From an uncultured Steroidobacteraceae bacterium (lineage in GTDB: Bacteria > Pseudomonadota > Gammaproteobacteria > Steroidobacterales > Steroidobacteraceae), in the NCBI GenBank assembly GCA_964412975.1, contig CAYPQX010000110.1, positions 1 through 54,874 of the forward strand: a DNA stretch of 54,874 nucleotides. Reading direction: 5' to 3'. The position numbers were made by a program, and so were the translations under genes. The notes beneath the pieces were generated by a model. That model was given only the letters and a program-made list of their open reading frames with translations. It did no database searches and had not been told where the DNA came from. This document shows positions 36,646-41,482 of the stretch, piece after piece (position 1 is the first letter of the stretch; each line of letters begins with the position of its first letter).

Positions 36646-37491
36646 TTATCCGAGGTCGACGGAGCGCCGCAACGCGAGGACTTCCTCGTAGCGAAGCGCC
36701 CGGAAATGGCCCGGTGGCAGCTTGCCGAGCTGAAGCGAGCCGAGGGCGACGCGCTCGAGGCTCTTGACCTTCATGCCGACCCGCGCGAACAGACGGCGTA
36801 TCTCGCGGTTCTGGCCTTCGCGGAGGGTCACCGACACGAGCGAGAGATCGCCGCGGCGCCGGTCCTTCATCCGCTTCAGGATGCGCACCTCCTTCAGGCG
36901 CGCGCGTTTCGCGCCGCCCTGGGGCGAGCCGGTGTCGGCGAGGAACATTCCCTGCGCGAGGCGCGCGATCGAATCGCTCGAGAGTTCCCCCTGCACCGCG
37001 ACCCGATACTCCTTTGCGATTCCGCGGCTCGGGTGCGCGAGGCGGTGGGCGAGTTCTCCGTCATTGGTGAGGAGCACGAGTCCGGTCGAATCGGCGTCGA
37101 GCCGGCCGACGGGATACACGCGGTCGCCGGCCGGCACGGCGGCGCGCACCATGTCGACGACATTCGGCCGCCCGCCTGGGTCCCGCGCGGTCGAGATCAC
37201 GCCGCGCGGCTTGTTGAGCACGAGATACAGCCGGTCGCGCGCGCGGACGCCCGTGCGGCGCCGTGTGTCGATGACGGTGCCGTCGAACTCGATCAGGTCG
37301 CGTAGGGGCTCGACGAGACAGGGGAGCGCAAGCACGCGCCGGCCGTTCACCCGCACGCGCCCGGCGCGAATGGCGAATTCCGAGTCACGTCGCGACGCGA
37401 CGCCCGCATCCGCCAGCACTTTCTGCAGGCGCTCGCCACCCTCCGTCGGCACGGCGACGGGTTTCCGGTCGCGAAAACGCGGGTCGCGCAT
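36646..37491 (-). CDS. RsuA/RluB-family rRNA pseudouridine synthase
   Basis: It has an S4 domain (RLQKVLADAGVASRRDSEFAIRAGRVRVNG) and the catalytic motif VYPVGRLDADSTGLVLLTNDGELAHRL. The start is either ATG 37491 or GTG 37533. Confidence 0.88.
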   Translation of the reverse strand: MRDPRFRDRKPVAVPTEGGERLQKVLADAGVASRRDSEFAIRAGRVRVNGRRVLALPCLVEPLRDLIEFDGTVIDTRRRTGVRARDRLYLVLNKPRGVISTARDPGGRPNVVDMVRAAVPAGDRVYPVGRLDADSTGLVLLTNDGELAHRLAHPSRGIAKEYRVAVQGELSSDSIARLAQGMFLADTGSPQGGAKRARLKEVRILKRMKDRRRGDLSLVSVTLREGQNREIRRLFARVGMKVKSLERVALGSLQLGKLPPGHFRALRYEEVLALRRSVDLG

Positions 37492-37556
37492 TGTCCTGTT
37501 CTCGATGATAGAGAACGGGTACGAGACTGACACGGGCGGCGGATCGCGCCCGTCCT

Positions 37557-37581
37557 AAAGGCGCCGCGGAGCGGCGCCCGG
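37557..37581 (-). terminator. Candidate rho-independent terminator after the HiPIP gene
   Basis: The stem is GGCGCCGC-gga-GCGGCGCC (37560-37578), followed on the minus strand by TTTAGGA. Confidence 0.45.
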
Positions 37582-37584
37582 GGC

Positions 37585-37926
37585 TTAACCGACCTTTGCG
37601 CCGGGTTTCAGCACCCAGACCTTGCACCAGCCCTGAGCAGCGACGTCCTTGCCAGGGAAGATATTGCAGGGACCTGCCGCGGCACCGGCCTTGCCGGTGT
37701 ATTGCATGCAGTTCGCGCAGATCTGGCCCGCCTTGTAGTTCGGGTTCGCTGCCGCATCGACCTTCTTGGCATCGGCGACATAGCCGAGCGACTTCGCGGT
37801 CGCATCGCTTTCCGACAGGGTTTCGGCAGTGACGTCGCGGGCGAAGAGCGAGGCCGCGGGCACGGCGGCGATGCCGGCAAGCGCGCCTTGCAACAACCGC
37901 CTGCGTGAAAGCTTTTCGTCGATCAT
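37585..37926 (-). CDS. High-potential iron-sulfur protein (HiPIP) with a Tat signal
   Basis: ATG 37926 is preceded by CAGGAG. It has the twin-arginine signal SRRRLLQG and the Cys pattern CANCMQY...GPCNIF...GWC. Confidence 0.85.
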   Translation of the reverse strand: MIDEKLSRRRLLQGALAGIAAVPAASLFARDVTAETLSESDATAKSLGYVADAKKVDAAANPNYKAGQICANCMQYTGKAGAAAGPCNIFPGKDVAAQGWCKVWVLKPGAKVG

Positions 37927-38063
37927 GGGAAGCTCCTGAATGAGTAGCCTGGCCTGCCGCCAGTATTCGCGTAATTGTCGCAATTCCTACCCGACCCTGC
38001 ATCCAATGAGAACTATTCTTGACTCGCGCCGGTGGCGGGCAATCGATTTGCTAGACTCCCGCC

Positions 38064-38389
38064 GGGCCTGTAGCTCAGTGGTTAGAGCAGGGGACTCATC
38101 TTTTGTTGCGAAAGGTGCCCCGGTTGCGAAAGTTTCCGGGTGGACGGGACGAATTCAGGGAAACCTTCCAGCGCGCACGCGGCTGATGGCAATCCTGAGC
38201 CGAGCCGGCGGTGCACCGCCGGAAGGTGCAGAGACTACCTGAGGGCTTTGAGTGCCCTTGATGACAGGCAAGAGCGTCCCGCACCCCCACGGCCGACTGG
38301 CGCCGCGGGTGAAGAGATAGTCCGCGCCCGCCGGAAACGGCGGGACCACGCGAATCCCTTGGTCCTGGGTTCGAATCCCAGCGGGCCCA
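38064..38389 (+). tRNA. tRNA-Ile(CAU) (ileX-like, lysidine-type) gene interrupted by a group I intron in the anticodon loop
   Basis: The exons GGGCCTGTAGCTCAGTGGTTAGAGCAGGGGACTCAT (38064-38099) and AATCCCTTGGTCCTGGGTTCGAATCCCAGCGGGCCCA (38353-38389) join into a 73-nt cloverleaf. It is collinear with E. coli tRNA-Ile2 as I recall it, including C4-G69 and C5-G68. CCA is not encoded. Confidence 0.85.
38100..38352 (+). ncRNA. Group I (IC3-like) self-splicing intron, 253 nt, with no internal ORF
   Basis: It is inserted right after anticodon CAU. The GGUGCC near the 5' end can form P1 with exon CAU, giving a U-G wobble at the splice site. Conserved core elements are GAATTCAGGGAAACC (P-like), GATGGCAATCCTGAGCC (Q-like), GAAGGTGCAGAGACTACC (R) and GAAGAGATAGTCC (S). 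The last nucleotide is G. Confidence 0.8.
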
Positions 38390-38530
38390 GCATTCCGGAT
38401 TTCATTGCGGACCCCGCCGCCGGCGTGGCCTGCACGCAACAACCTTTCGCACTTGCGGTAAATATCGATTGCAGAGACACTCTTGGCCACAACACCGCCC
38501 GGATCCACGGGCTGAAACAGGGGCAGGATC

Positions 38531-41482
<2,952 letters not shown>

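What the first reader, a model, noticed from the sequence alone, without database searches (positions are those of the whole stretch)
38064..38389. Group I intron splitting a tRNA-Ile(CAU) gene
A 253-nt insertion sits exactly after anticodon CAU, between exon ends ...GGGGACTCAT and AATCCCTTGG... It carries the classical group I core elements: GAATTCAGGGAAACC, GATGGCAATCCTGAGCC, GGTGCAGAGACTACC and GAAGAGATAGTCC. A GUG guide can pair with exon CAU through a U-G wobble, and the intron ends in G.

Bacterial tRNA group I introns are rare. From memory, the best-known case outside cyanobacteria is the small IC3 intron in the Azoarcus tRNA-Ile(CAU) gene, which ours resembles in the ...ATGGCAA.GCC.AGCC... 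and GAAGGTG.AGAGACTA segments. This one is about 50 nt longer, with extra peripheral helices between R and S. It is too small to encode a homing endonuclease. If this is the only tRNA-Ile2 gene, splicing is essential for decoding AUA.
Basis: partly seen in the sequence, partly recalled or inferred. Interest (0 to 1): 0.6.

Follow-up and report, generated by a model that had tools for sequence, protein, structure and literature searches.

The report
Self-splicing-type intron in tRNA-Ile gene
The gene for the tRNA that reads the rare isoleucine codon AUA is split by a real, well-conserved 253-base group I ribozyme intron, but this is one of the four classical, already catalogued settings for such introns in bacteria and is common in related Gammaproteobacteria.

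Summary
Exon 1 is 38064-38099, the intron is 38100-38352 (253 nt) and exon 2 is 38353-38389. Rfam Intron_gpI scores 62.2 bits against a cut-off of 50. The joined exons fold into a CAU cloverleaf with tRNA-Ile2 marks (G3-C70, C4-G69, C5-G68). Intronless orthologues in the same order read ...GACTCAT/AATCCC..., which fixes the splice sites.

The intron sits at the same syntenic locus in 28 of 36 sampled genomes of the genus. A closely similar form occurs in Steroidobacteraceae, Woeseiaceae, Lysobacter, Luteimonas and others. On 28 diverse copies, 95.9% of cells are paired and 33 pairs carry compensatory changes, so the ribozyme fold is under selection. It is the only tRNA-Ile2 gene found in this 86%-complete MAG. 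TilS is present and AUA codons are in use.

This is class 'Ile2.5Ug' of Williams 2020, a known kind, and this scan has met it many times on other DNA.

Such introns are not very rare. This one is also not specially Azoarcus-like: core identity is 62-64%. It carries a conserved hairpin between P7 and P3', the site of P7.1/7.2 in IA introns, which Azoarcus-type copies lack.

Splicing itself was not tested. Interest is low.

The parts
38049..38057 (+). Possible extended -10 element (TGCTAGACT), ending 6 nt before tRNA position 1
   Evidence: Read from the sequence. Similar TAGAAT/TAGTAT/TAGACT strings lie 7-20 nt upstream of the same gene in other families. The consensus scan found no sigma-70 site, so this is inference only.
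38064..38099 (+). Exon 1 of tRNA-Ile2(CAU): acceptor 5' strand, D arm, anticodon stem 5' strand, loop CUCAU
   Evidence: It is 97% identical to exon 1 of intronless orthologues in the same order.
38100..38352 (+). Group I intron, 253 nt, no ORF with a known domain
   Evidence: RF00028 at 62.2 bits. Boundaries are fixed by the intronless orthologues. No Pfam match for any ORF over it.
38097..38117 (+). P1: exon CAU plus intron CUUU (38097-38103) pairs with AAAGGUG (38111-38117). U38099-G38115 is the wobble pair at the 5' splice site. The guide GGUG is 38114-38117.
   Evidence: One search lists the pairs. The four proximal pairs C-G, A-U, U-G, C-G are invariant in 28 of 28 diverse copies.
38119..38140 (+). 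P2 hairpin with GAAA tetraloop
   Evidence: RNAalifold. All 8 pairs show compensatory changes.
38145..38151 (+). P3 5' strand (CGGGACG), pairs with 38275-38281
   Evidence: It is 100% paired, with C-G / U-G / U-A at one position.
38155..38227 (+). P4-P5-P5a-P6-P6a domain (contains GAATTCAGGGAAACC and GGCAATCCTGAGCC)
   Evidence: P6a has 4 pairs with compensatory changes. P5a varies too much to align across families.
38233..38237 (+). P7 5' strand (GACUA), pseudoknot with 38318-38322 (UAGUC)
   Evidence: The pairs are invariant and paired in 28 of 28. Invariant pairs are neutral evidence.
38238..38268 (+). Extra hairpin between P7 and P3' ('P7.1-like'). The outer stem is CCUG/CAGG and the inner stem GGGC/GCCC. 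The internal loop is asymmetric: A opposite UUGAUGA.
   Evidence: 35-nt insertion against the Rfam consensus. RNAalifold predicts it. Two inner pairs switch GC to AU in 6-7 of 28 copies with 100% pairing. It is present in all gamma-type copies and absent from Azoarcus-type copies.
38275..38281 (+). P3 3' strand (CGUCCCG)
38282..38311 (+). P8 (CACCC ... GGGUG) with a variable distal part
38318..38322 (+). P7 3' strand (UAGUC), within GAAGAGAUAGUCC
38324..38352 (+). P9.0 (GCG 38324-38326 with CGC 38349-38351), P9 hairpin with GAAA loop (38327-38344), and the terminal G at 38352
   Evidence: P9.0 has compensatory changes in 2 of 3 pairs and P9 in 6 of 7. The terminal G is invariant.
38353..38389 (+). 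Exon 2 of tRNA-Ile2: AA of the anticodon loop, anticodon stem 3' strand, T arm, acceptor 3' strand, discriminator A. The next bases are GCA, so no CCA is encoded.

Best explanation
This is the tRNA-Ile2 (ileX-type, anticodon CAU) gene of an uncultured gammaproteobacterium. It is interrupted between anticodon-loop positions 36 and 37 by an ORF-less group I intron of the catalogued 'Ile2.5Ug' class.

The likely pathway is inferred from the anatomy and from the Azoarcus model system; it was not shown here. The gene is transcribed as a precursor of about 326 nt. The anticodon stem holds the two exons together. Exon CAU pairs with the guide GUG to form P1, with a U-G wobble at the splice site. A free guanosine bound in P7 attacks after U38099. 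The terminal G38352, presented by P9.0, then takes the G site, and the 5' exon attacks after it. This joins the exons and releases the intron.

Only after splicing can TilS convert C34 to lysidine, so that the tRNA reads AUA as Ile. CCA must be added afterwards, because it is not encoded.

The GAAA loops of P2 and P9 and the extra hairpin between P7 and P3' probably brace the fold through tertiary contacts.

The intron is inherited vertically at a fixed locus in the genus. It has no mobility gene.
For: CM hit above the gathering score and full length; single copy in the genome. Splice sites are fixed uniquely by the intronless orthologues ...GACTCATAATCCC....

Ile2 marks G3-C70, C4-G69 and C5-G68 are present (criteria from PMC1635315). 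The other two CAU tRNAs carry Met and fMet marks. TilS scores 159.5 bits, over its cut-off.

AUA makes up 1.4 per 1000 codons and occurs in 51% of 749 long ORFs.

RNAalifold recovers the tRNA arms, P1-P6, P8, P9.0 and P9 without guidance. On 28 copies from many families, 95.9% of cells are paired against 36-47% for slid partners, and 33 pairs show double changes. No shuffle out of 500 reaches any of the five measures.

28 of 36 genus genomes carry it at 86-95% identity, with the same neighbours (RluA-like gene, orf205, TonB-receptor-OmpA gene). There is no protein domain in any ORF over the intron.

The class is described in bioRxiv 10.1101/2020.01.27.920355. Self-splicing of the Azoarcus member is shown in PMC13168695.
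Against: No splicing data exist for this intron or any close relative that I could find.

P7, the outer stem of the extra hairpin, P4 and most of P3 never vary, so they give no covariation support.

The MAG is 86% complete, so a second intronless tRNA-Ile2 gene cannot be excluded. One genus genome (G021) has such a copy on a short contig.

No obvious P10 pairing with the 3' exon is visible. Seven genus genomes show neither an interrupted nor an intact copy, and the reason is unknown.

The sequences are related, so the shuffle control overstates significance.
Confidence: 0.93

Rival explanations
1. It is a real group I intron, but it does not splice on its own in the cell. It needs a host protein or RNA chaperone to fold, and the extra hairpin could be the docking site.
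For: The hairpin between P7 and P3' has an invariant asymmetric loop (A opposite UURAUNA) with no assigned partner. P5 and P8 lack the 11-nt tetraloop receptors that I recall from Azoarcus and saw in the Azoarcus-type copies L120/L122 (CCTAAG...TATGG). Protein-assisted group I splicing is known (review PMC3984707).
Against: No candidate cofactor gene travels with the intron; its neighbours differ between families. Small tRNA introns of this subgroup that have been tested self-splice (PMC13168695). A high G+C content and long G-C helices favour autonomous folding.
Confidence: 0.12
2. The gene is a decaying pseudogene. The intron no longer splices, and AUA is read by another tRNA missing from the assembly.
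For: The MAG is incomplete. No CCA is encoded here, unlike the other tRNAs of the genome that were printed. G021 has a second, intronless copy.
Against: Every helix of the window's copy pairs; the only non-standard pair is one U-U in P2. All columns that are invariant in the genus are kept. Compensatory changes across the genus and beyond show purifying selection on the fold. The exons are identical or nearly identical across the genus. In the 98%-complete, 2-contig genome G003, no other Ile2-like copy was found by BLAST. The missing CCA is shared by 13 of 30 copies, and PolyA_pol-family (CCA-adding enzyme type) genes are present.
Confidence: 0.03
3. It is a tRNA-Arg(CCG) gene with the intron between positions 34 and 35, as ARAGORN's intron mode reports.
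For: ARAGORN -i calls Arg(CCG) i(35,253).
Against: That reading puts C, not U, before the 5' splice site. In relatives the two bases that would complete the anticodon vary (CG or TG), which would turn the same gene into Gln(CUG). Intronless orthologues read CAT. The genome already has an ordinary tRNA-Arg(CCG) with a different body.
Confidence: 0.01

Closest known systems
'Ile2.5Ug' class of group I intron-split bacterial tRNA genes (Williams 2020, bioRxiv 10.1101/2020.01.27.920355)
   Same: Same host tRNA (Ile2, CAU). Same site, after the fifth nucleotide of the anticodon loop. U before the 5' splice site, terminal G, no ORF, found by the Rfam Intron_gpI model.
   Different: Nothing that defines the class differs. 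The preprint gives counts, not structures, so it does not say whether it covers the extra hairpin. I could not run its gpI_bact_tRNA model.
[quoted passage not shown]
   Same: Same gene, same insertion site, CAU/GUG P1. GAAA loops on P2 and P9. Same order of helices, no ORF.
   Different: This one has 253 nt against 205. Azoarcus-type copies found here (L120, L122; 204 nt) go from GACUA straight through GAC into P3', while the window has a 31-nt hairpin there. P4 is UCAGGG rather than UCGGYG. P5 and P8 lack the CCUAAG/UAUGG motifs. Core identity is 62-64%. A tree places them apart, but an AU test does not reject one common clade (p 0.17).
[quoted passage not shown]
   Same: The core strings GGCAATCCTGAGCC and GGTGCAGAGACT are shared. 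From my own memory these are the conserved strings that the plant trnL primers g and h target. It is also an anticodon-loop intron without an ORF.
   Different: Different tRNA and site (after U34 in Leu). tRNA-Leu introns in my sample have 43-64 nt between the two P7 strands against 85 here, so they have no hairpin there.
P7.1/P7.2 extension of subgroup IA introns (phage T4 td; PMC4498298)
   Same: An extra structure is inserted between P7 and P3, the same place as the window's hairpin. In td it packs on the P7-P3-P8 domain.
   Different: Here it is one short hairpin, not two helices. The rest of the intron looks IC3-like. No sequence likeness was tested.

Membership tests
Group I intron (Rfam RF00028) | Covariance-model score at or above the gathering cut-off over the whole model | tested here: met
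   62.2 bits against 50, model positions 1-253 of 253, E 1.9e-13.
Group I intron (Rfam RF00028) | P1 formed by the 5' exon and an internal guide, with a U-G wobble at the 5' splice site | tested here: met
   CAU pairs with GUG. U38099-G38115 is U-G in 28 of 28 and in 30 of 30 copies.
Group I intron (Rfam RF00028) | Terminal guanosine before the 3' splice site | tested here: met
   G38352 is invariant in all aligned copies. It is preceded by a covarying P9.0.
Group I intron (Rfam RF00028) | Conserved P3-P8 and P4-P6 helices supported by compensatory changes | tested here: met
   95.9% of cells paired, 33 pairs with double changes, slid controls 36-47%. The support comes mainly from P2, P6a, P9, P9.0 and the extra hairpin. 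P3 and P4 vary on one side only, at a single pair each.
Group I intron (Rfam RF00028) | P7 pseudoknot that holds the guanosine-binding site | tested here: inconclusive
   GACUA/UAGUC can pair in every copy, but neither strand ever varies. This is compatible with the feature without showing it.
Group I intron (Rfam RF00028) | Guanosine-dependent self-splicing | not testable with these tools
   Needs an in vitro transcript or RNA from the organism.
Ile2.5Ug class (Williams 2020) | Host gene is tRNA-Ile2 (CAU to be lysidinylated), not tRNA-Met or tRNA-fMet | tested here: met
   G3-C70, C4-G69 and C5-G68 are present. It lacks A11-U24 (criteria from PMC1635315). Separate Met and fMet genes exist, and so does TilS. 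tRNAscan-SE isotype models were not available.
Ile2.5Ug class (Williams 2020) | Intron after the fifth nucleotide of the anticodon loop (between 36 and 37) | tested here: met
   This is the only placement that rebuilds CTCATAA as in nine intronless orthologues.
Subgroup IC3 | Best match to a subgroup-specific model; compact periphery (P2, P9, no P5abc, no P7.1/7.2) | tested here: inconclusive
   No subgroup models were on hand. There is no P5abc, and P2 and P9 carry GAAA loops. Core strings are shared with IC3 tRNA introns. However, a hairpin sits where IA introns have P7.1/7.2 (PMC4498298).
Azoarcus-type tRNA-Ile intron (narrow sense) | About 205 nt; P7 joined to P3' by 3 nt; 11-nt tetraloop receptors in P5 and P8 | tested here: not met
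   253 nt; 41 nt between P7 and P3'; no CCUAAG/UAUGG motifs. Core identity is 62-64%.

The most novel reading that the evidence does not exclude
The gammaproteobacterial tRNA-Ile2 introns, this one included, form a distinct and so far undescribed structural sub-type of IC3-like tRNA introns. Its mark is a conserved P7.1-like hairpin between P7 and P3' with an invariant asymmetric loop (A opposite UURAUNA). This hairpin may replace the 11-nt tetraloop receptors of the Azoarcus type as the main tertiary brace. The tRNA-Ile2 site may thus have been colonised by more than one intron lineage.
Probability: 0.3. Interest if true: 0.3.

Novelty: new member of a known kind. Interest (0 to 1): 0.15.

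Why it matters
The main use is for annotation. Default tRNA finders miss this gene. ARAGORN's intron mode misnames it Arg(CCG) or Gln(CUG). Genomes of this group would then appear to lack the AUA-reading tRNA.

Biologically it shows that an ORF-less ribozyme can stay fixed in what appears to be an essential single-copy tRNA gene across a whole genus, with its fold kept by compensatory changes.

The extra hairpin gives ribozyme structural biologists a natural variant to compare with the much-studied Azoarcus ribozyme. None of this changes what is known about group I introns.

Tried and rejected
1. K-turn (box C/D-like) reading of the extra hairpin. CUGA and UGAUGA are both present. However, the G that would form the first sheared G-A pair is A in about nine of 28 copies. 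The G that would pair with C176 is A, C or U in many copies. The bulge would be 2 nt rather than 3. CCUG/CAGG is invariant and fully Watson-Crick. Rejected.

2. 11-nt tetraloop receptor or T-loop in the same loop. The sequence does not fit. Rejected by inspection.

3. Independent origin of the gamma-type and Azoarcus-type Ile2 introns. The tree separates them, but it rests on 124 columns, and the AU test does not reject one clade (p 0.17). The group was also named after I had seen the tree. Left open.

4. There is no Pfam domain in any ORF over the intron or in the upstream 205-aa ORF.

5. The other ARAGORN intron-mode calls in the genome (C68, C96, C105, C122, C130, C167, C169). None is backed by an RF00028 hit, so I treat them as false.

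6. Partial second matches in G014 and G011. No Rfam hit at E 0.01.

7. The sigma-70 promoter and terminator scan found nothing.

8. Ikawa et al. 2000 (PMC110692), on IC3 structure, is not held in the library.

9. The taxon could not be named below 'Gammaproteobacteria bacterium'. Genus mates L098 (= G027) and L100 carry only that title.

Full report
OBSERVATION. Rfam's Intron_gpI model matches 38087-38344 at 62.2 bits (gathering score 50, E 1.9e-13), covering model positions 1-253. It is the only such match in the 2.50-Mb, 211-contig, 86%-complete assembly that holds the window. ARAGORN in default mode sees no tRNA anywhere in the window. On the joined exons it draws a regular 73-nt cloverleaf with anticodon CAU.

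SPLICE SITES. ARAGORN's intron mode finds the gene at exactly 38064-38389 with a 253-nt intron, but shifts the intron 2 nt to the 5' side and calls it tRNA-Arg(CCG). Comparison settles the matter.
- Nine intronless orthologues, eight from other families of the same order and one from G021, read ...GGGGACTCATAATCCC....
- In 30 interrupted copies, CAT before the intron never varies, whereas the last two intron bases are CG or TG.
- So exon 1 is 38064-38099, the intron is 38100-38352 and exon 2 is 38353-38389, with U before the 5' splice site and G38352 as the terminal G.
- The same artefact made ARAGORN label many related genes Gln(CUG) or Arg(CCG).

WHICH tRNA. The body has G3-C70, C4-G69 and C5-G68. 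Silva et al. (PMC1635315) give these as marks of tRNA-Ile(CAU) as against Met and fMet, which usually have C3-G70. The assembly has two other CAU tRNAs:
- one on C72 with C3-G70 and a Met-elongator-like body;
- one on C124 with A11, G12 and the GGG/CCC anticodon stem of initiators.

TilS is encoded at 159.5 bits, over its cut-off. AUA makes up 1.4 per 1000 codons and 2.9% of Ile codons. It occurs in 383 of 749 long, coding-like ORFs. No tRNA-Ile(UAU) was found. As far as an incomplete MAG can show, the interrupted gene is therefore the only reader of AUA.

STRUCTURE. RNAalifold on 30 interrupted genes, 27 from the genus and three from other families of the order, recovers these elements without any guidance:
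- the acceptor, anticodon and T stems;
- P1 (CAUCUUU/AAAGGUG);
- P2 with a GAAA loop;
- P3 (CGGGACG/CGUCCCG);
- P4, P5, P5a, P6a and P8;
- P9.0, and P9 with a GAAA loop.

I added P7 (GACUA 38233-38237 with UAGUC 38318-38322) as a pseudoknot and put P6 in its canonical register. I then counted the pairs on a wider alignment of 28 copies from many families:
- 95.9% of cells form standard pairs, against 36-47% when partners are slid by 1-3 columns.
- 33 of 94 pairs show changes on both sides.
- The covariation score is 0.237, against about 0.05 for the slid controls.
- No shuffle out of 500 reaches any of the five measures. The sequences are related, so I put more weight on the slid controls.
- The support comes from P2 (8 of 8 pairs), P6a, P9 (6 of 7), P9.0 (2 of 3), the T stem and the extra hairpin.
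- P7, P4, most of P3 and the outer stem of the hairpin never vary and so are neutral evidence.

In the window's own copy every helix pairs, apart from one U-U in P2. The fold is therefore under selection and this copy looks intact.

THE EXTRA HAIRPIN. Against the Rfam consensus there is a 35-nt insertion directly after AGAGACUA. It folds as follows (38238-38268):
- an outer stem CCUG/CAGG;
- an inner stem GGGC/GCCC;
- a variable end loop;
- a very asymmetric internal loop, A on the 5' side and UUGAUGA on the 3' side.

It is present in every gamma-type copy examined, with a loop consensus of UURAUNA. Two inner pairs switch from GC to AU in 6-7 of 28 copies without loss of pairing.

Matsumura et al. 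[quoted passage not shown] The window's hairpin sits at that same site. I therefore call it P7.1-like and infer, without proof, a tertiary bracing role. A K-turn reading fails (see tried and rejected).

DISTRIBUTION AND INHERITANCE.
- Within the genus. Among 36 other genomes sampled from the genus, 28 have the full interrupted gene at 86-95% identity and one has a piece at a contig end. Two of these genomes, G005 and G012, are unpublished. Without them the counts are 26 plus one of 34. No other claim rests on the unpublished genomes, except that G005 was one of the 19 loci in the synteny check.
- Genus genomes without it. Seven genus genomes (59-94% complete) show neither an interrupted nor an intact copy.
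- Synteny. The neighbours are the same across the genus: an RluA-like pseudouridine synthase gene, a 205-aa ORF, the tRNA, and a TonB-dependent receptor fused to an OmpA domain. They are not shared with other families. This points to vertical descent at a fixed locus.
- Within the order. Three of 24 genomes from other families carry the intron (72-79% identity), and at least eight have an uninterrupted gene.
- Across the species genomes held (one per species). Of the 80 loci returned, 26 are gamma-type tRNA-Ile2 genes from Steroidobacteraceae, Woeseiaceae, Rhodanobacteraceae, Lysobacter, Luteimonas, Azotimanducaceae, Pseudomonadales and unnamed Gammaproteobacteria. There are also two from Burkholderiales, two Azoarcus-type and about 30 tRNA-Leu(UAA).
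- Taxon name. Two loci (L098 = G027, and L100) belong to the window's genus. They are titled only 'Gammaproteobacteria bacterium'.

RELATION TO AZOARCUS. Two copies in my sample match what I remember of the Azoarcus sequence: L120 (Neisseriaceae bacterium TC5R-5) and L122. They are 204 nt long, run from GACUA through GAC into P3', and carry CCTAAG...TATGG-type motifs in P5 and P8.
- Over the P3-to-P7 core, the window's intron is 70-95% identical to gamma-type copies.
- It is only 62-64% identical to these two and 63-68% to the Burkholderiales copies. That is no more than to some tRNA-Leu and tRNA-Ser introns.
- A maximum-likelihood tree on 124 columns groups the 24 gamma-type copies (98/94). 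It places them with the Burkholderiales copies and some Ser/Asn introns (98/95), away from the Azoarcus type.
- An AU test does not reject a single clade of all tRNA-Ile2 introns (p 0.17). I also named that group after seeing the tree.

So the likeness to Azoarcus is one of class and insertion site. A separate origin is possible but not shown.

WHAT IS KNOWN. Williams (bioRxiv 10.1101/2020.01.27.920355) surveyed 80,413 bacterial genomes and found 5292 tRNA genes split by group I introns. He lists Ile2.5Ug as one of the four classical settings, all marked IC3 in the earlier database. Together the four account for 3453 introns. The window's gene meets each feature of that class.

The Azoarcus member self-splices and circularises in vitro, with the 5' exon paired to the guide and the 3' exon unpaired before the first step (PMC13168695). 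The review by Hausner et al. (PMC3984707) describes the general two-step mechanism that I apply here.

Notes from this scan show the same class confirmed on many other genomes. One of them also mentions 'one extra conserved hairpin'. I reached the same points from my own calls before reading them.

MECHANISM, AND WHAT IS SHOWN.
- Shown here: the element is present, its boundaries are fixed, its fold is conserved by compensatory change, it interrupts the apparently sole tRNA-Ile2 gene, and it carries no ORF with a known domain.
- Inferred from the family: guanosine-initiated two-step transesterification; the anticodon stem holding the exons, since no P10 is evident; and the order of events, namely splicing, then lysidine formation by TilS, then CCA addition.
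- CCA addition is needed because the bases after the discriminator are GCA. PolyA_pol-family (CCA-adding enzyme type) genes are present.
- A possible extended -10 (TGCTAGACT, 38049-38057) lies just upstream. The consensus scan found no promoter or terminator.

VERDICT. This is a correct and carefully described observation of an ordinary member of a catalogued class. The only mildly new point is the conserved P7.1-like hairpin of the gammaproteobacterial form, whose role is untested.

Noticed in passing
window 38390-38392: The bases after the discriminator are GCA, so this tRNA has no encoded CCA. The other tRNAs of the genome that I printed end in CCA. Among 30 interrupted copies, 17 encode CCA and 13 do not. 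Three PolyA_pol-family (CCA-adding enzyme type) matches exist in the genome.
   Followed up: partly
window 37385-38002 (-): A 205-aa ORF with no Pfam match lies between the RluA-like gene and the tRNA. It overlaps the annotated 5' end of the RluA-like ORF by about 150 nt. It is kept in the genus but far less conserved than its neighbours (45-70% against 68-93% identity). It may be a fast-evolving small gene or may not be coding.
   Followed up: partly
window 38049-38057: TGCTAGACT looks like an extended -10 element ending 6 nt before tRNA position 1. TAGAAT/TAGTAT-like strings stand at similar distances in other families. This would mean a very short or absent 5' leader. The promoter scan found nothing.
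   Followed up: no
window 38531-41482 (+): One 983-aa ORF holds a TonB-dependent receptor (Plug plus barrel) with a C-terminal OmpA peptidoglycan-binding domain. It is conserved next to the tRNA in the genus and was already noted by the scan (e1-4158265).
   Followed up: partly
L042 / L168 (G021:C31:4483-4556): One genus genome carries, besides the interrupted gene, an intronless tRNA-Ile2-like gene on a 6.9-kb contig. It is 92% and 84% identical in the two halves and has no CCA. It could be a second copy, a mobile-element copy or contamination.
   Followed up: partly
L167:106-407 (G059:C27): A genome from another family of the same order has a further group I intron (RF00028, 80.6 bits) in a tRNA cluster. 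Its 3' part is 76% like the window's intron. The host tRNA was not identified.
   Followed up: no
L046-L124: ARAGORN's intron mode labels nearly all tRNA-Ile2 genes of this class as Gln(CUG) or Arg(CCG), because it places the intron 1-2 nt too far 5'. This is a systematic annotation trap.
   Followed up: yes
L050, L068: Two matches to the intron pattern lie in MAGs titled 'Candidatus Pacearchaeota archaeon'. Williams 2020 suspected mis-binned bacterial scaffolds for a similar case. I did not check this.
   Followed up: no
L061, L069, L090: Other tRNA introns also have a hairpin between P7 and P3', but with different sequences. The Burkholderiales tRNA-Ile2 copies have GGGUG...CACCC. L090, whose host tRNA ARAGORN calls Asn(GUU) (not checked), has GGUG AUUA CACC. 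The site seems to be a recurrent place for insertions.
   Followed up: partly
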